A stretch of 64,000 nt of DNA, taken from Thermodesulfobacteriota bacterium (GTDB lineage Bacteria > Desulfobacterota > Desulfobacteria > Desulfobacterales > SURF-7). This document shows positions 36,001-57,000 of the stretch, in pieces. The DNA is taken from NCBI GenBank assembly GCA_049320885.1, contig JBMORA010000034.1:47245-111244 (forward strand), written 5' to 3'. Numbering within the stretch: the first letter of the stretch is position 1; each line of letters opens with the position of its first letter. Made by a program: the position numbers.

Positions 36001-39000
36001 GAGCTGCGCCTTCAGTGATTTGGGAAGTCGCAACGGATAAGTTGATGTTTCCTTCATTTCTCATTCTCCTCGCATTCTTTTGATGGCCGTGGATGGAGAA
36101 ATCGCCTCCAGGCCAAACATTCCCGGCACTTCACCATAATCACGTAAATTGAACGTCACAATCGCGTCGGCTTTGCCATTAACGGCAACCTCTAAAACCA
36201 TTTCGTCGTTTGGATCACGCAGCGTTGGTCGCCAGAGATAATGTGTTTGGACCGGTTCAATCAATGCGGCAATACCACTAATGAAAATATCCGCTTGTTC
36301 CCTTGTCAATCCAGCGGCGATCCAATGCACCGGATCCGTGCATTTGGCTTCGTATTCAAAAAAAAGCGGTACGCTGGCCAGCATTGTTACCCGCCTATCC
36401 AAGGCCGCGCATAATAATGCCGCTGATGCCCCGGTTGGGCTGCGCATGGCGGCGACAATGACATCGGTATCCAAAACAAGTCTACGCATGATATCGTATA
36501 TTATGTCATATCATATACGATGTCAACATTCGCTTCAATTCGAACGCCAAGAAAACCTTCAAGAAATTCCCCTACCCGCCGATATAGTTTGTGTAGAGAC
36601 GAACTCCCTTTTCAACAATCGGTTACAAAAAATCCAAAGGAGGTGATCGAAACAAATGTAATTTTCCCATCGAAACAATATGTTGTCTTTATCCAGCAAT
36701 GATTTCAAGCAATGGGGAAAGGAATCCCCGTCACCCACACATGGAGGTTAGACCATGGCATTACGTATCAATACCAATATATCAGCAATGAACGCCCACA
36801 AGAACTTGATAAGCACCGATAACAAGTTGTCGGCCTCCATAGAGAGGCTGTCCACCGGTTTGCGGATCAACAAGGCGGCCGACGATGCGGCCGGCATGGG
36901 CATCGCCGATTCCCTCAAATCCCAGGCCCTGAGTCTGGGGCAGGCCATCCGGAACGGCAATGACGGTATCAGCATCGTGCAGACCGCCGACGCCGCCCTG
37001 CAGGAATCCATCAACATCGTCAACACCATTAAAACCAAGGCCATCCAGGCGGCCCAGGACGGCCAGACCACCGATTCCCGGAAAGCCATCCAGGCGGATA
37101 TCGACAAGCTCTTGGAAGAGCTCGATATGATCGCCGAGACCACATCCTTCAACAACCAGAAACTGCTCTTCGGCAATTTCACCAACAAAAAATTCCAGAT
37201 GGGCGCCTATTCCGGTGAAACCATCAGTATCTCCATCGCCTCGGCCCAATCCACCAAAATGGGCCATGTCACCACCGGCCGGCTGGGCATCACCGGCGAC
37301 CAGCCCGGCTCCGTTGAACTGGCCATCTACAGCAACCTGCAGAACCAGAGCTTCCTGGTGGAATCCGTCAATGTCCAGTACAACAACAGCGCGGAAAACA
37401 GCCTGGGCGCGGTGGCCTCAAACATCAACCGGCTGAGCGACTCCCTCGGTATTTCGGCAACGGCCGTGGTGGAGAGCAAGACCAGCCTCAACATCGCCGC
37501 GGGCACCACCGATGCGGACTTCGCCATCAATGGTATCACCATCGGTCAGTTGAATGTCGTGGCCAATGACGCCGACGGCGCCCTGGTCAAGGCCATCAAC
37601 CAGAAAACCTCCCAGCACGGCGTCATCGCCAGCGTGGACAGCGCCGGATACATGACCCTGACCTCCACGGACTCGCGGGCGCTTCAGGTATCCTATGGCA
37701 GCGCCATCGGCAGCGGCCTGGGCACCGACGCCATCCTGCGGGGCTCCGACATGTCCACCCTGGGCTATATCACCCTCAACCAGGAAGGCTCGGCGGAAAT
37801 CCAGGTCCTGGATGTGGGCGACGGCGGGGTCGTGGCCATCACCAGCGATCTCGAAACCGCGGGCACCACCACCACCACCCAGGCCTCCACCCTGGGAGCC
37901 GGATCCACCCTGGCCCAGAATTCCGTTCTGGGAGCCGGCTGGACCGCGGACCAGAACTTCGCCGGCACCCAGTTCGCCGCGCCCATCACCACCACCCTGT
38001 CTTCCACCCTGCTGAACGGTTCGAGCCTGGGACAGAACTCCATCCTGGGCGCCGGCACGGTCATCGGCGCCAATTCCACCTTCGGCGGCGTCGGCACGGT
38101 TGAGGAAGTGGCCAACACCACCGGCAACAGCACCATCGAGAGCGCCTCGACCCTTCAGGCCGGTTCGGTGCTGAGCCTGGCGACGACGGAGGACATCACG
38201 GCGGACATGACCATCGCCGCCTCCAACACCGCCACCGCCGCCAGCACCCTGACCTCCGGAGCCACCCTGGGCGCCGGCACGGTCCTGAACTCGGGCCAGA
38301 TCCTGTCCGGTGCCATGTCGGGCGTGGCTTTCACCATCCGGCAGACCGGCGAGGCCGCCGGGGCCACCTCCATCGCCAGCGGCTCCACCCTGGCCACGGG
38401 CACGGTCCTGAATTCCGGCCAGATCCTGTCCGGCGGCTTGTCCGGCGTGGCCTTCACCATCGGCCAGACCGGTACGGCCCTTAGCGCCACCACCATCGCC
38501 AGCGGCTCCACCCTGGCCACGGGTACGGTCCTGAATTCCGGCCAGATCCTGTCCGGCGGCTTGTCCGGCGTGGCCTTCACCGTGGCCGAAACCGGGACGG
38601 CCCTCAGCGCCACCACCCTGGCCAGCGGCTCGACATTGGCCGTGGGTACCGTCCTTGCAGCCGGTCAGGGCCTGCTCAACGTGGCCGACAGCGTTTCCAT
38701 CGACACCACCGTCACCACCCAGACCACCACCCTCTCCGGTGCCTCCACCAACAGCATCCTGGCCGTGGGCACGACCTTCGTGGCCGGCCACACCATGGGC
38801 TACAATGCCACCGTCAGCGACACCGCCGCGACCGTAGGCTCCAGCACCATTGCCGCCAACAGCACTTTGGCCAGCGGCACGGTCATCGGCTCCGGCACGA
38901 CCTTCACCCAGGATATCTACACCACCACCGGCGTGCTCACCGCCGGCACCGCGGTTTCCGGCACGGTCACCCTGTCCGGCGCCCAGGTCATCGCCGCGGG

Positions 39001-54000: not shown

Positions 54001-57000
54001 TTCAGGGTATGTCCGATGCCGGTCATGGGTTATGCCTCCCGGTGCAGCAACACATTCGCCCGTTCCCTGCGTTCCGGTCCCCGCGGCTTTTCATAGGGCA
54101 CGGCGGGTTTGCCGGCATTGGCGATGATGCCGATGAGTTCATCCAGAACGAGAAGATATTCCTCCACGAAATTCTTGTTGGCGCGGGAAAGAGCGTGGAC
54201 CCTGGTTTTGGCGGCCAGCAGGGCCCGTTGCAGATTGCCGATTTGTCGATCCCGGCGGTCCGGTAACAAAGCGAAAATGCGTTCTTCGCGGAAGGTTTCC
54301 GCCGTCATGCCGTGTTCCACCCCCAGGCGCTTCAGTTCGGCCAGCATTTTGCGCCGCAATAATTCGATATCGCTGACATATTGGTGTTTGCGGTCCGAAA
54401 ACCGCCACAGCGCTTCCACATCGGACCGGATCAGGCTTTCTTTCTCCTGTTCCAATACGTCGATGAGGGAATGATACACGACGATTGTTTCCTGCAACAG
54501 ATTGACCATGCCGTTCGATCCGGTTTCCATCATCCATCTCCTTTGCCCCGGCCGGACGGACCGCCGGCTGAAACCCGAAAACCACCCAGCCTTGTCATGC
54601 CCATCCCCCGAGTACTTACCATTATCATCGGTATAACCGCTCCCTTCCTGAAGCCGTCCCGATCCTTCATTCGTAATTCGTAATTCGTAATGGCTTTATT
54701 TGATTTTTTCTTTCAATTCCATATACATGGCCTCACCAAGCCCCATATTCTTATCGCTCCGGGCGATGTCCTCCGAAACCTGCCGATAGTACATGGATTC
54801 ATAGATATCCCGGGCCAGACTGCCGCCGAAAAGATCGCTTTTCGACAAGGAACTGCGCATGCTCTCAAACATCTGGTTCAACATGACCGCCTCGAAATCC
54901 GCGCAGGCCTGCCGGAGTTTGGCCTGCTCCTGCCGCAAATCCTTTTTTTTGGCACCGTCGGCCCGGGACGCGCCACTCGCTGCCCCGTCCGCCCGGCTGG
55001 CCCCGATTTTTCCCGTATCCATACCGCTCTCCCTGTTTGAGTCTTCTGACCATTCACTCCCATGCAACTTACAATTGATCCCCATCCACCATCCACCATC
55101 CGCCATTCGTAATTCGTAATTCGTAATTCATAATTGTCTTTATATGATGATCAAATCCGCCTGCATGGCCCCGGCGGCCTTGATGCTCTGAAAAATGCTG
55201 ATCATGTCCCGGGGGGTCACGCCGATGGCGTTCAGGGCCCGCACCAGATCACCGATGGTGGAGGCGCCCGGAACCAGCATCACCTTGCTTTTATCCTCTT
55301 TCATCGTGATCTGGGTATCCCGGGTGGTGACGGTCTCTCCGCTGGCAAAAGGTCCCGGCTGGGACACGGCTTCGCTTTCCGTGATGGTGATGCTGAGGTT
55401 TCCGTGTGAAATGGCCACAGTGGAAATCCGGACATTCTCACCGATAACCACCGTGCCGGTTTTTTCATTGACCACGATTTTGGCCACCGAATCCGGCATC
55501 ACTTCCAGGGTTTCGATGCCGGCGATGAACAGGGACACATCCATCCGCATCTCCGGGGGGATTTGAATCCACATGGTGGCGGAATCCACCGGCCTGGCCA
55601 GCCGTTTCCCCATGGCGGCATTGATGGTCTCCGAGATGCGCAGGGCAGTGGTGAAATCCGGATTGTACAGGGAAAGGGTCAAATCCCCCCTGCCATTCAG
55701 GGGCATGGGAATTTCCTTTTCCACCGTGGCCCCTCCCGCCACCCGGGCCACCAGCAGATGGTTTTTGATCACCGAACCGGCATCCCCGGCGGCTCCGGCT
55801 CCGCCGAGGGCCAGGGCGCCCTGGGCCAGGGCATAGGTATTGCCGTCCACGCCCTTGAGGGGTGTCAGGAGCAGGGTCCCGCCCACCAGACTCTTGGCGT
55901 CGCCCACGGAGGACACCATGATATCGATCTGGTTGCCCACCCGGGCAAAAGGCGGCATTTCCGCCGTCACCATGACGGCAGCCACGTTTTTGACTTTCAA
56001 CTGATCGGGGCTGACCTGGATCCCCATGCGGTCCATCATGTTCGACAGGGCCTGAATGGTAAAGCGGGCCTTCTGTTTGTCGCCCGTGCCGTTCAGGCCC
56101 ACCACCAGACCGTATCCGATCAGCTGATTGTTGCGCACGCCTTTAATGGAAACCAGTTCCTTGATCCGCACCCCATGGGCCGGCGGCGCGACTGCCAGCA
56201 GGAACAGCCCTGCCGCCGCGATCCAGATGCTTGCCTTTGTCCGATGTCCCATCATCCGCCCTCCTGGGGATTCGAGATTTGAGATTTCAAATTTGAAATC
56301 AAAAAAACAAACTTTCTCAATCCACAATCTCAAATCTCAAATCTCAAATTTGAAATCTCAAATCAAAAAGGACTGACCCAGTCGATGATCCGCATTCCCC
56401 ATCCCACCCGCTGTTTGTCGCCCAAAACCCCCTCGCCGAAATATTCGATGCGGGCATCGGCCAGATAGGTCGATTTGATGTGGTTATCCGCAGTGACATC
56501 CTCCCGCCGGGCGATCCCGGAAACGGTGATGATCTGGTTTTCGTTGTTGACCCGCATCTCCCGCTTGCCGAAAACCACCATATTGCCGTTGGGGAGGACT
56601 TCCGTGATCCGGCCGCCGATGGAGGCCGTGACCCGGCCGCTGCGGTCGCTTTGCCCCTCGCCCTTGTGCTCGTTGGTCAGGCTGCTCTTCCAGAGAGCAC
56701 TGGGGCTCAAATTCTCGTTGATATTCTCCTGCCCGGTCAACCCGTCCACCGCCACTTCAAGGGTCCGTTCGGATTTCGTTTCCGTATTGGCGTCCACTTT
56801 GGATGATGTATTTTCCACAATGTCCACAATGATGGTATCCCCGGTGCGTCTTGCGCGGCGATCGACGAAAAGGAGTTCGCCGCCGTTTTCGGTCCACAAG
56901 GAGCCTTCCGCCGCCGGTTGGGCCGAATAGGAGTGTCCGGCCATGGGCGTTTGGGACTCCGGCAGTGGCATTACCGCATTGGTTTCCGGCCCGGAAGAAC

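What a model noticed while it worked through the whole genome (the two positions that open the first line are those of the whole stretch)
36755..54026. Whole outer flagellum built from giant proteins: flagellin, FlgL, FlgK and FlgE all 1100-1500 aa
Not only the flagellin (g02925, 1295 aa) but also both hook-filament junction proteins, FlgL (g02932, 1423 aa) and FlgK (g02933, 1497 aa), and the hook protein FlgE (g03249, C40:5873-9250, 1125 aa) are giant: each keeps the conserved N- and C-terminal axial helices and carries an 800-1200-residue insert without Pfam match. The flagellin insert is a low-complexity hexapeptide-like (left-handed beta-helix type) repeat; FlgL and FlgK share a homologous ~90-aa insert segment. 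In relatives the sizes co-vary: genomes with a giant FlgK have giant flagellins. This predicts a thick flagellum whose outer domain layer runs over hook, junction and filament; a normal 276-aa flagellin (g02900) is also enc [...]
Evidence so far: Domain positions. Hexapep E 8e-12 and LbH_EIF2B hits inside the flagellin insert. blastp FlgL 297-386 vs FlgK 481-567, 48% id, E 1e-12. FlgK found in 15 of 35 other order genomes; frames of 1129, 1393, 1533, 1391, 1180 and 926 aa in 6, 462-697 aa in the rest. Flagellin frames 1309/1311, 1308/1311, 1153/1235, 966 aa in 4 of 5 giant-FlgK genomes (506 aa in the fifth) versus 483 and 388/405 aa (none found in 3) in 5 normal-FlgK genomes.
(Added by a program. 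Inside this text positions count along the whole contig: contig position 47,245 is position 1 of the stretch shown here. "Call 12" and the like, gene names such as g00115 and contig names such as C1 are that model's own, and its searches are not shown. The text may have been shortened before it was handed on; [...] marks where a part breaks off. The agent that wrote the report below was given it as the finding of a first reader that could run no searches.)

Follow-up and report, generated by a model that had tools for sequence, protein, structure and literature searches.

The report
Flagellum with four giant axial proteins
An uncultured sulfate-reducer relative encodes a flagellum whose hook, two junction proteins and one flagellin are each three to five times the usual size, which predicts an unusually thick, domain-coated flagellum that nobody has yet looked at.

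Summary
The window (a Desulfobacterales MAG) holds intact genes for a 1295-aa flagellin, a 1423-aa FlgL and a 1497-aa FlgK. A 1125-aa FlgE lies on another contig, in the fliK-flgD-flgE position. All four keep the axial N- and C-terminal core. Caps and rod proteins are normal-sized.

The inserts are folded repeat arrays of separate origin:
- Flagellin: about 820 aa of hexapeptide (left-handed beta-helix type) repeats.
- FlgL: five copies of an unnamed ~122-aa alpha/beta module.
- FlgK: flagellin-D2/D3-like modules plus all-beta domains (alignment-based AF2, pLDDT 76).
- FlgE: its own ~57-aa repeats.
- FlgK and FlgL share about 200 aa, not 90.

Across 151 sampled genomes of the order all four sizes co-vary (Spearman 0.77-0.86). 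In ten other genomes of the phylum with giant FlgK, FlgL is always ~300 aa and no flagellin reaches 1000 aa. The coupling is therefore lineage-specific, not obligatory.

A 276-aa flagellin and a 482-aa FlgE paralog are also encoded, so "whole flagellum giant" is not established. Filament thickness remains a prediction.

Verdict: new variant of a known kind (giant flagellins; the enlarged Campylobacter hook and junction).

The parts
36755..40642 (+). Giant flagellin, 1295 aa. D0/D1 plus a first outer domain like Helicobacter/Campylobacter flagellins (residues 1-353), then the insert, then C-terminal D1/D0 (1173-1295).
   Evidence: Flagellin_N 2.2e-43; Flagellin_C 4.9e-27. H. pylori FlaB 9yh1 matches at 3.3e-101, aligned over 3-353 and 1173-1295.
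37817..40270 (+). Flagellin insert, residues ~355-1172. Hexapeptide-repeat (left-handed beta-helix type) region with 41-42-aa higher-order repeats. Over residues 371-1205 it is 30% Ser+Thr and has 1 Lys and 4 Arg.
   Evidence: Hexapep at 44.7 bits for the whole sequence (cut-off 27), but no single stretch passes alone. 41/42-aa repeats are 73-84% identical. LIVF autocorrelation is 0.29 at lag 6 against shuffles of -0.007 +/- 0.036, maximum 0.10. Profile A4 hits LpxD at 5.7e-9, then gamma-carbonic anhydrase, GlmU, PglD and VioB. No structure was predicted for it.
36559..36585 (+). Sigma-28-like promoter candidate, TCAAGAAA-N11-GCCGATAT, about 170 nt upstream of the giant flagellin start.
   Evidence: Read from the sequence. 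The consensus is recalled, not from a tool. GCCGATAW occurs 14 times in the window against 4.5 expected. Lead only.
45151..49422 (-). Giant FlgL (HAP3), 1423 aa. The axial core is residues 1-196 and 1334-1423; the insert is about 1137 aa.
   Evidence: TIGR02550 at 210 bits (cut-off 127.2). The C-terminus matches the 750-aa chain 9gsx_A, labelled 'Flagellin' in the Campylobacter junction-cap entry and read here as FlgL by its length (1.1e-09).
45487..47358 (-). Four of the five ~122-aa FlgL modules (residues 689-817, 815-933, 1065-1188, 1186-1312). The fifth is residues 185-308 (48499-48870).
   Evidence: HMM scan. Alignment A1, 33 modules, 43% mean column identity. AF2 pLDDT 80.9, pTM 0.77, four strands - helix - three strands. 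No Pfam hit; no PDB sequence hit below E 0.07. Best fold matches are Z 9.3, 8.7 and 8.3 (virus penton and phage baseplate proteins), Z 6.6 (H. pylori FliD) and Z 4.8 (P. aeruginosa FliC).
47908..48537 (-). FlgL residues 296-505: block homologous to FlgK 480-701.
   Evidence: hhalign of A5 against A2: probability 99.3%, E 5.2e-20, 37% identity over 187 columns. blastp: 48% over 92 aa.
49533..54026 (-). Giant FlgK (HAP1), 1497 aa. D0/D1 are residues 1-312 and about 1457-1497; the insert is 313-1456.
   Evidence: TIGR02492 at 319.9 bits (cut-off 170.75). FlgK_D1 3.6e-51. It is the only FlgK_D1 match in the genome.
49659..53090 (-). FlgK insert, residues 313-1456: a string of strand-strand-helix-strands modules and all-beta domains.
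   Evidence: AF2 on a 28-sequence alignment: pLDDT 75.7, pTM 0.56, 808 of 1144 residues at 70 or more. VIA second look: P. aeruginosa FliC D2/D3 8erm_A Z 13.9, rmsd 3.3, 183 of 199 aligned; H. pylori FlaB Z 9.8 and FlaA Z 9.4; H. pylori FliD Z 8.5. Foldseek gives 8erm_A probability 1.00.
13433..14263 (-). Small flagellin, 276 aa, D0/D1 only. It is a paralog of the giant one (54.5% identity over the N-terminal 176 aa, 44% over the C-terminal 115 aa).
16463..35076 (.). Candidate flagellin glycosylation island: epimerase-family protein, PseB, oxidoreductase, GNAT, WbuX amidotransferase, amidase, Maf/PseD-like transferase (29519-32437), TPR/GT9-like protein, FkbM methyltransferase. Several ORFs have no family match.
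   Evidence: PseB TIGR03589 1.5e-152 (over cut-off). WbuX TIGR03573 1e-100 (over cut-off). MptE-like 1.4e-38. PseD domain 2.9e-28 (below cut-off).
41044..43283 (+). FliD cap (569 aa) and FliS chaperone (172 aa). Neither is enlarged.
   Evidence: FliD_C 8.8e-42; FliS 6.5e-30.
54030..61289 (-). flgN, rod-binding FlgJ-like gene, flgI, flgH, flgA, flgG (260 aa), flgF (283 aa) and a FliK-like gene (368 aa). All are ordinary in size.

Best explanation
The region encodes the late, extracellular part of the only flagellar system of an uncultured Desulfobacterales bacterium. The system is of the Campylobacter/Helicobacter type.

Shown:
- FlgK, FlgL and one flagellin in the window, and FlgE on contig C40, are intact orthologs. 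They keep the D0/D1 segments that polymerise into the axial tube.
- Each carries 660-1140 residues at the position that faces outward.
- The inserts are repeat arrays of different origin. The flagellin has hexapeptide beta-helix repeats. FlgL has five copies of an unnamed 122-aa alpha/beta module. FlgK has flagellin-D2/D3-like modules plus beta domains. FlgE has its own 57-aa Asp-rich repeats.
- A ~200-aa block is shared by the neighbouring flgK and flgL genes.
- Models exist for one FlgL module and for the FlgK insert, and both are confidently folded. The flagellin and FlgE inserts were not folded.
- Proteins that are not exposed on the side of the flagellum are normal-sized: rod FlgF and FlgG, caps FlgD and FliD.

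Inferred:
- After export through the flagellar type III channel the four proteins assemble in the usual order.
- Their outer domains then form a continuous thick protein coat over hook, junction and filament. The filament would be at least as thick as the 30 nm or more measured for other giant flagellins.
- The coat is probably O-glycosylated by the adjacent Maf/Pse island on the Ser/Thr-rich beta-helix.
- The coat would change stiffness, drag and surface chemistry for swimming or attachment in biofilm or sediment.
- The joint enlargement is a trait of this lineage, not a mechanical requirement.
For: Gene structure and context:
- Intact frames with family scores over curated cut-offs.
- One FlhA, one FlgK and one FlgL in a 98%-complete genome.
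- Canonical context: flgN-flgK-flgL, flagellin-(small ORF)-fliD-fliS, fliK-flgD-flgE.
- Normal-sized FlgG (260 aa), FlgF (283), FliD (569) and FlgD (253).

Conservation:
- Near-identical architecture in independent assemblies: L018 FlgK/FlgL 1502/1423 and L019 1502/1425; G111 flagellin 1397, FlgE frame 1129.

Nature of the inserts:
- Flagellin: hexapeptide repeats.
- FlgL module: AF2 pLDDT 80.9. Module number tracks FlgL length: 3 copies in 771-774-aa proteins, 4 in 906 and 933 aa, 5 in most of 1017-1427 aa.
- FlgK insert: AF2 pLDDT 75.7, best fold match flagellin D2/D3, Z 13.9.
- No similarity between the inserts apart from the FlgK/FlgL block.

Co-variation in the order (151 genomes, 65 usable):
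- Spearman 0.77-0.86 for all six pairs; 0.77-0.89 on means per GTDB family.
- With FlgK of 1100 or more: FlgL >= 650 in 14 of 15 against 1 of 46; flagellin >= 800 in 13 of 15 against 1 of 33; FlgE >= 700 in 14 of 15 against 3 of 37.
- In 13 of these 15 genomes one search found the enlarged FlgE as the only FlgE_D2 gene. The exceptions are G000 and G111, which also hold the small paralog. G002 has a second flgK-flgL pair and a second FlgE.

Precedent:
- Giant flagellins gave filaments of at least 30 nm against 24 nm (PMC6248924, passages).

Weak hint of expression:
- Short contigs from three RNA libraries of two studies lie on the flagellin gene with 0-1 differences over 81-253 nt, and one lies on flgL. 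Contigs cannot show level, and DNA carry-over is not excluded.
Against: - No image, proteome or quantitative expression data exist for this organism or a close relative.
- The same genome encodes a 276-aa flagellin and a 482-aa FlgE paralog. A small 256-318-aa flagellin accompanies the giant one in at least 10 genomes of the order. The filament may therefore be mixed or mostly small flagellin.
- The coupling fails outside the order. Ten genomes with FlgK of 968-1417 aa have FlgL of 299-317 aa. Nine have flagellins of 299-835 aa and the tenth row (200 aa) is cut at a contig end. Their FlgE frames are 501-948 aa.
- Exceptions inside the order: G002 (FlgK 1533, FlgL 554, flagellin 506, FlgE 689) and G052 (flagellin 580).
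- Genomes of one family are not independent, so the correlations overstate the support.
- The flagellin and FlgE inserts were not folded. How an 820-residue beta-helix packs on a filament is unknown.
Confidence: 0.6

Rival explanations
1. Two-flagellin filament. The 276-aa flagellin builds most of the filament. The giant flagellin is a minor or conditional component, such as a hook-proximal or distal segment, or an alternative filament for surfaces. Most of the flagellum is then not thick, even though hook and junction are.
For: - The small and giant flagellins are close paralogs: 54.5% and 44% identity in the polymerising ends.
- The pairing is conserved in at least 10 genomes of the order.
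- Filaments with one flagellin near the hook and another further out are described for Shewanella and Helicobacter (PMC11532411, passage in the Discussion).
- An FlgE paralog without the insert is also present in G000 and G111.
Against: - The giant gene sits in the canonical flagellin-fliD-fliS position, with a sigma-28-like motif upstream.
- Several giant-lineage genomes carry two giant flagellin genes in tandem: G015, G026 and G106.
- For five of the 15 giant-FlgK genomes (G012, G052, G063, G120, G002) the listed rows show no small flagellin. However, 29 weak rows were not listed.
Confidence: 0.22
2. Co-inheritance without functional coupling. The inserts are tolerated, drifting repeat expansions at the exposed positions of a flagellar gene set that is inherited together. 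Sizes correlate only because of shared descent. No continuous, selected outer layer exists.
For: - Enlargement of the components is uncoupled elsewhere in the phylum.
- It is also uncoupled in the giant-flagellin gamma-proteobacteria (PMC6248924, passages).
- Giant sets cluster by GTDB family: 11 families.
- Repeat number varies freely: 3-6 FlgL modules.
- Flagellin inserts diverge fast: the best hit outside the close relatives is 36% identical.
Against: - Four inserts of unrelated origin have all grown in the same lineage.
- Within the enlarged lineage alone (FlgK >= 590) the sizes still correlate, at 0.77-0.89.
- The FlgL module and the FlgK insert are predicted as confidently folded domains, not disordered filler.
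- Exporting 1100-1500-residue subunits in thousands of copies is costly, which argues for selection. This is inference.
Confidence: 0.15
3. Assembly or gene-calling artefact: repeats collapsed or chimeric contigs create falsely long frames.
For: - The genome is a MAG from a metagenome.
- The genes are repeat-rich.
Against: - Both conserved ends are in frame in all four genes.
- Orthologs of nearly the same length occur in independent assemblies and sources.
- Another DNA run holds matching contigs across the whole region.
Confidence: 0.02

Closest known systems
Giant flagellins of Bermanella marisrubri and Oleibacter marinus (Thomson et al. 2018, PMC6248924; abstract and passages read)
   Same: A flagellin of more than 1000 aa with conserved D0/D1 ends and a repeat-built central region. 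Those flagellins were shown to give thicker filaments (at least 30 nm against 24 nm). The paper lists a Desulfotalea species among giant-flagellin holders.
   Different: - There the other Flagellin_N proteins, which are FlgL-like, are the shorter ones.
- FlgK is not mentioned (0 occurrences) and FlgE only as HMM training data.
- Here hook and both junction proteins are enlarged too, and the flagellin insert is a hexapeptide beta-helix.
- Those authors reported no similarity to enzyme domains for their proteins.
Campylobacter jejuni / Helicobacter pylori flagellum (PDB 5jxl, 9gsx, 6x80, 9yh1, 9ygu; PMC12221982 and PMC5691160, passages)
   Same: - These are the best sequence matches of all four proteins: flagellin to 9yh1 3.3e-101 and 6x80 2.7e-95; FlgE to 5jxl 1.3e-45; the FlgL C-terminus to 9gsx_A; FlgK to 9gsx_L.
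- In C. jejuni the solved chains are moderately enlarged: FlgE 851 aa, a 750-aa chain that I read as FlgL, FlgK 608 aa, FlaA 576 aa.
- FlgL there has a 'bulky D2 domain'.
- A Maf/pseudaminic-acid type glycosylation island lies beside the flagellin, as in those organisms (recalled for Campylobacter).
   Different: - The sizes here are about 1.3 to 2.5 times larger.
- The extra mass consists of repeat arrays with no sequence match to the Campylobacter outer domains.
- The host is a free-living anaerobe.
Geovibrio thiophilus flagellin, 793 aa (PDB 9au6; Sonani et al. 2024, PMC11532411, passages)
   Same: - It has a multi-domain outer region (D2-D5), and it is the largest flagellin structure solved so far.
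- Its D2 fold is said to occur mainly in hook-associated proteins.
- It is the top Foldseek hit of the FlgK insert model (E 2.3e-4).
   Different: - It is a flagellin, not a junction protein.
- The filament diameter is only 24 nm.
- The words giant, FlgK and FlgL do not occur in the paper.
Left-handed beta-helix (hexapeptide) acyltransferases such as LpxD, GlmU and PglD
   Same: The insert profile matches their hexapeptide-repeat regions (LpxD 5.7e-9 over about 185 residues), and the sequence has period 6.
   Different: - There is no nucleotide- or acyl-binding domain.
- The insert lies inside an exported structural protein.
- Trimer formation and catalysis were not tested. The resemblance is to the fold only.

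Membership tests
Flagellin (FliC/FlaA) | N-terminal and C-terminal helical regions that form D0/D1 | tested here: met
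   Flagellin_N 5-143 at 2.2e-43 and Flagellin_C 1211-1294 at 4.9e-27. Aligns to H. pylori FlaB over 3-353 and 1173-1295.
Flagellin (FliC/FlaA) | Gene context with the cap FliD and the chaperone FliS | tested here: met
   fliD at 41044-42753 and fliS at 42765-43283, directly downstream.
Flagellin (FliC/FlaA) | Polymerises into the filament | not testable with these tools
   No culture, image or proteome is available.
Giant flagellins (over 1000 aa, Thomson 2018) | True flagellin longer than 1000 aa | tested here: met
   1295 aa. It scores as flagellin (NF010115, 443 bits), well above its FlgL score (TIGR02550, 70 bits).
Giant flagellins (over 1000 aa, Thomson 2018) | Thick filament | not testable with these tools
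   Prediction only.
FlgL (HAP3) | Score over the equivalog cut-off, and position directly after flgK | tested here: met
   TIGR02550 at 210 bits against 127.2. The gene starts 110 nt downstream of the flgK stop. The same pairing is seen in 26 of 30 related loci; the other four are cut or hold only part of it.
FlgK (HAP1) | Score over the equivalog cut-off, FlgK_D1 domain, and the flgN chaperone gene upstream | tested here: met
   TIGR02492 at 319.9 bits against 170.75; FlgK_D1 3.6e-51. flgN lies at 54030-54533.
FlgE (hook) | Rod-type N-terminus, D1, D2 and C-terminal domains; gene after flgD | tested here: met
   Four Pfam domains, and the order fliK-flgD-flgE on C40. C. jejuni FlgE 5jxl matches at 1.3e-45.
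Left-handed beta-helix (hexapeptide repeat) fold | Hexapeptide periodicity and profile similarity to solved LbH proteins | tested here: met
   The Pfam Hexapep score is over the sequence cut-off, but no single repeat passes alone.
Left-handed beta-helix (hexapeptide repeat) fold | A three-dimensional model showing the triangular helix | not tested
Hexapeptide acyltransferases (enzymes) | Substrate-binding domains and catalytic residues | not tested
   Only the repeat region matches. No claim of enzymatic activity is made.
Flagellin D2/D3-type outer domain (for the FlgK insert) | Fold similarity to solved flagellin outer domains | tested here: met
   8erm_A Z 13.9, rmsd 3.3, 183 of 199 residues aligned; 8sug_A Z 13.9. 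This rests on a predicted model with pLDDT 75.7.
Flagellin D2/D3-type or FliD-type outer domain (for the FlgL module) | Fold similarity clearly above background | tested here: inconclusive
   Best Z is 9.3 (a virus penton protein); H. pylori FliD 6.6; P. aeruginosa FliC 4.8. The tool's stated background best Z is 7-8. Foldseek found nothing at E <= 0.001.

The most novel reading that the evidence does not exclude
A lineage of Desulfobacterales builds a flagellum with a covalently attached, continuous protein sheath. The sheath is made of beta-helical rods on every flagellin subunit and of tandem domain arrays on the hook and both junction rings. These grew by four independent accretions under joint selection. 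This would be a new architectural class of bacterial flagellum, well above 30 nm thick, glycosylated and beta-helix-coated. Its surface, rather than its core, would be what adapts it to life in sediment or biofilm matrix.
Probability: 0.3. Interest if true: 0.75.

Novelty: new variant of a known kind. Interest (0 to 1): 0.55.

Why it matters
Outer domains of flagellins are now known to alter filament mechanics and surface behaviour. Hook and junction outer domains have been studied almost only in Salmonella and Campylobacter.

A system in which all four side-exposed axial proteins are enlarged to 1100-1500 aa gives a natural extreme case for three questions:
- Do the outer layers of hook, junction and filament have to match?
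- How are 1500-residue subunits exported and folded at the tip?
- What does a beta-helix coat do for a propeller?

The work also defines an unnamed ~122-aa FlgL module, found in only 12 proteins of the 5.8-billion-sequence collection searched. It shows that giant FlgK is fairly common in the phylum while giant FlgL is rare.

Named isolates with related beta-helix flagellins make the thickness prediction directly testable. They are Desulfospira joergensenii, Desulfobotulus alkaliphilus and Desulfobacter postgatei.

Tried and rejected
- Pfam and NCBIfam gave nothing for the FlgL module, the non-core parts of FlgK and FlgE, or the small ORFs at 40692-40979, 43256-44106 and 44205-44840.
- The PDB sequence profile of the FlgL module had its best E at 0.074.
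- Foldseek on the FlgL module found no match at E <= 0.001.
- hhalign of the FlgL module against FlgK gave E 0.04, probability 1.3%, around an 'NNRISF' motif. I did not accept it as homology.
- hhalign of the FlgL module against FlgE found nothing. FlgE against FlgK matched only the C-terminal helix.
- The ESM Atlas holds no structure for FlgK. The feature search gave only Flagellin_IN or FlgK-fragment clusters at 0.86-0.90, which I treat as leads.
- Sigma-54 pattern: one site at 59728-59742, against 0.67 expected by chance, so not significant. The strict sigma-28 pattern gave 0 matches.
- Sequencing runs: only Logan contigs were available, and RNA runs hold small shares (0.06-0.07). What was laid cannot rank genes or show transcript ends. 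Parts without RNA cover are not evidence of silence.
- A joint in one DNA contig that skips flgL (45092 to 49481, side 33, likeness threshold 90) is too weak to read as a strain lacking flgL.
- Literature searches for giant or large FlgK, FlgL, FlgE or hook found nothing relevant. A search for thick flagella in Desulfobacter found nothing relevant, and one for flagellin outer domains with hexapeptide or beta-helix found one unrelated review.
- Supplements of PMC6248924 (its list of flagellins over 1000 aa) were not opened. They may already list relatives of this flagellin.

Full report
**What is there**

The window is G000:C34:47245-111244 of a 5.6-Mb, 68-contig, 98%-complete genome. The genome was probably assembled from a biofilm metagenome. 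Its closest named relatives are Desulfobacterales MAGs, one of them labelled Desulfosudis oleivorans.

The three frames of the finding are intact and have the stated lengths:
- flagellin, 36755-40642 +, 1295 aa;
- FlgL, 45151-49422 -, 1423 aa;
- FlgK, 49533-54026 -, 1497 aa.

Their identity is not in doubt:
- Flagellin_N and Flagellin_C match the flagellin at 2.2e-43 and 4.9e-27.
- The FlgL equivalog TIGR02550 scores 210 bits against a cut-off of 127.
- The FlgK equivalog TIGR02492 scores 320 bits against a cut-off of 171.

The gene context is canonical:
- a glycosylation island with PseB, WbuX and a Maf/PseD-like transferase;
- two PIN-domain genes;
- the giant flagellin, a small ORF, fliD and fliS;
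- on the other strand flgL, flgK, flgN, a flgJ-like gene, flgI, flgH, flgA, flgG, flgF and a fliK-like gene.

The genome has one FlhA, one FlgK and one FlgL, so it has one flagellar system. The 1125-aa FlgE lies on contig C40 behind fliI, fliJ, fliK (566 aa) and flgD (253 aa), and it has all four hook-protein domains.

The genome also holds a second, isolated FlgE paralog on C12, 482 aa long. It is 44-45% identical to the giant FlgE at both ends and lacks residues 276-933 of the giant protein.

The 276-aa flagellin at 13433-14263 relates to the giant flagellin in the same way. It is 54.5% identical at the N-terminal end and 44% at the C-terminal end, and it lacks about 1000 central residues.

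**Nature of the inserts**

Flagellin:
- Residues 3-353 and 1173-1295 align to H. pylori FlaB, so the insert is about residues 355-1172.
- Over residues 371-1205 the composition is T 17%, A 15%, G 14%, S 12%, with 1 Lys and 4 Arg.
- It has 41-42-aa higher-order repeats that are 73-84% identical.
- Aliphatic residues show a clear period of six: 0.29 at lag 6 against a shuffle maximum of 0.10.
- A profile of 17 such inserts matches the hexapeptide regions of LpxD best (5.7e-9). The other named rows are also LbH-type: gamma-carbonic anhydrases, GlmU, PglD, VioB and eIF2B.
- The left-handed beta-helix reading is therefore supported at sequence level. I did not fold this insert.

FlgL:
- It contains five copies of a ~122-aa module with the signature ...I.ID..NNrIDF.E....Y....LA.aiE.A......Y.V.YD....F.I...G..L..L.LLW.sG.N...sAa..LGF.
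- Relatives have three to six copies, and the copy number tracks FlgL length from 771 to 1427 aa.
- The module has no Pfam or PDB sequence match.
- An AF2 model from 33 aligned modules is confident (pLDDT 80.9, pTM 0.77) and shows four strands, a long helix and three strands.
- Its fold matches are middling: Z 9.3-8.3 to virus penton and phage baseplate proteins, 6.6 to H. pylori FliD, 4.8 to P. aeruginosa FliC. I leave its fold family open.

FlgK:
With a 28-sequence alignment the insert (313-1456) folds at pLDDT 75.7, with 808 of 1144 residues at 70 or more.
- The model is a chain of strand-strand-helix-strand modules and all-beta domains.
- Its best structural match is the D2/D3 outer-domain pair of P. 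aeruginosa flagellin (Z 13.9, rmsd 3.3, 183 of 199 residues aligned).
- Next come the H. pylori flagellins (Z 9.8 and 9.4), phage tail proteins and FliD.

FlgE:
- Its insert has its own repeats, of about 57 aa at 707-933 and about 53 aa at 412-543.
- Profile comparison finds no relation to the FlgK or FlgL inserts.

The only cross-protein homology is FlgL 296-505 with FlgK 480-701. It has probability 99.3%, E 5e-20 and 37% identity, so the shared block is about 200 aa, not 90. The block lies between FlgL modules 1 and 2. That gap is about 380 residues in the 1423-1427-aa FlgLs and about 100 residues in most shorter ones, although some shorter FlgLs also have large gaps there. Most FlgKs of alignment A2 keep the block. 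This suggests a copy from flgK into its neighbour flgL; that direction is my inference.

**How rare**

The counts below are for proteins of similar length, and only the 8000 best word-sharing candidates were scored in each search.
- 12 proteins of the 5.8-billion-sequence collection share the FlgL insert.
- 28 share the FlgK insert.
- 141 share the flagellin insert, including proteins of named isolates.
- Among the 150 best of 21,525 FlgE-family representatives, about 22 are 900-1321 aa long.

**Co-variation**

In 151 genomes sampled from the order:
- FlgK_D1 is over the cut-off in 75.
- Flagellin_N matches in 77 (the 29 weakest rows were not listed).
- FlgE_D2 matches in 62.

How the table was built:
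- I assigned FlgL as the Flagellin_N match beside flgK on the same contig.
- I added four FlgL lengths from fetched loci.
- Ten genomes with FlgK of 421-749 aa were dropped (G010, G014, G016, G050, G055, G066, G074, G097, G098, G116), because their flagellin or FlgL rows were unlisted or cut.
- For genomes with two systems I used the largest value of each protein.

Results:
- Spearman coefficients for the six protein pairs are 0.77-0.86 (n = 41-61).
- On means per GTDB family they are 0.77-0.89 (31-46 families).
- Among genomes with FlgK of 590 aa or more they are 0.77-0.89.
- The table compares the 15 genomes with FlgK of 1100 aa or more with the rest.

| Protein and threshold | FlgK >= 1100 aa | FlgK < 1100 aa |
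|---|---|---|
| FlgL >= 650 aa | 14 of 15 | 1 of 46 |
| Flagellin >= 800 aa | 13 of 15 | 1 of 33 |
| FlgE >= 700 aa | 14 of 15 | 3 of 37 |

The 15 giant-FlgK genomes come from 11 GTDB families. The exceptions are G002 (FlgK/FlgL/flagellin/FlgE of 1533/554/506/689) and G052 (flagellin 580, against 1168 in its congener G120). Kin are not independent, and giant repeat genes may be missed in MAGs.

**The test that limits the claim**

In a sample of 151 genomes of the phylum, FlgK frames of 968-1417 aa occur in ten genomes of six other families. In those ten:
- FlgL is 299-317 aa in 10 of 10.
- The largest flagellins are 302, 318, 835, 497, 832, 536, 819, 517 and 516 aa. One further row (200 aa) is cut at a contig end.
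- FlgE frames are 501-948 aa.

The giant-flagellin paper likewise reports shorter FlgL-like proteins beside giant flagellins (PMC6248924, passages). Enlargement of one axial protein therefore does not force enlargement of the others. The four-way pattern is a trait of part of this order.

**Interpretation**

Only proteins whose middle parts face outward on the side of the flagellum are enlarged. Rod proteins FlgF and FlgG (283 and 260 aa) and the caps FlgD (253) and FliD (569) are not. Four inserts of unrelated origin grew in one lineage, and the two that were modelled are confidently folded.

The most economical reading is a thick outer-domain coat that runs over hook, junction and filament. 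The Maf/Pse island would probably glycosylate it on the Ser/Thr-rich beta-helix. By analogy with the measured giant flagellins, the filament would be 30 nm or more against the usual 24 nm (PMC6248924). All of this is inference.

The main open point is which flagellin, and in this genus which FlgE, is actually used.

Two weak leads bear on expression:
- A sigma-28-like motif lies upstream of the giant gene. The consensus is recalled.
- Near-identical short contigs occur in three RNA libraries of two studies.

Neither can rank the giant gene against the small one.

**Comparison with what is known**

The system is of the Campylobacter/Helicobacter type by sequence. In C. jejuni the hook, junction and filament proteins are already moderately enlarged, and FlgL has a bulky D2 domain (PMC12221982, passages). 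Giant flagellins are described (PMC6248924). So is a wide diversity of flagellin outer domains, the 793-aa Geovibrio flagellin being the largest one solved (PMC11532411, passages).

My searches found no paper on giant FlgK, FlgL or FlgE, or on joint enlargement of these proteins. The two outer-domain papers do not contain 'FlgK'. The library lacks most subscription journals, and I did not open the supplementary tables.

I therefore rate the finding as a new variant of a known kind, of moderate to good interest.

Noticed in passing
G000:C12 (L009:7847-9295, - strand): An isolated, normal-sized FlgE paralog (482 aa; stop-to-stop frame 551). It lies beside a D-Ala-D-Ala carboxypeptidase gene, far from other flagellar genes. 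It is 44-45% identical to both ends of the giant FlgE. The same pair is seen in the congeneric genome G111 (frames 1129 and 488).
   Followed up: partly
window 60183-61289 (-) and L008:3296-4996 (+): There are two FliK-like genes in a genome with one flagellar system. One is 368 aa, beside flgF/flgG (Flg_hook 4.2e-08). The other is 566 aa, before flgD-flgE (8.2e-16).
   Followed up: no
window 35243-35773 (+) and 36061-36489 (-): Two PIN-domain genes, with an 83-aa ORF between them, sit between the glycosylation island and the giant flagellin gene. This is possibly a toxin-antitoxin insertion.
   Followed up: no
protein P0012 (1688 aa): An FlgL relative from another metagenome carries five of the 122-aa modules and also a strong hexapeptide / left-handed beta-helix region (Hexapep 9e-19, LbH_EIF2B 9.6e-17). 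The beta-helix insert therefore occurs in junction proteins as well as in flagellins.
   Followed up: partly
window 38900-39700 (flagellin residues about 815-985): The 42-aa repeats each contain a conserved 'AGHS(L/F)' motif. Most of the few histidines visible in the insert lie in such motifs. I do not know whether it means anything.
   Followed up: no
window 59728-59742 (-): There is a perfect sigma-54-type motif, TGGCAC-N5-TTGC, near the annotated start of flgF. One match is found against 0.67 expected by chance, so it is not significant alone. It would fit a Campylobacter-like regulatory hierarchy.
   Followed up: no
window 45092 / 49481: One DNA contig of a sediment metagenome (X2) joins the sequence just downstream of flgL to the flgK-flgL spacer, with 14 other letters between. 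It thus skips the whole of flgL. Only 33 letters lie on the shorter side, at 90% likeness, so this may be another organism or a chance join.
   Followed up: no
window 7151-9200 (-): A MotA/ExbB-family gene (326 aa) overlaps an OmpA-domain gene (369 aa). This is a stator-like pair upstream of the flagellar region.
   Followed up: no
phylum sample, genomes G217 and G277 (family f138): These genomes combine a giant FlgK (1125 and 1376 aa) and a large FlgE (913 and 948 aa) with ~300-aa flagellins and FlgL. That would mean an enlarged hook and proximal junction under a bare filament.
   Followed up: partly
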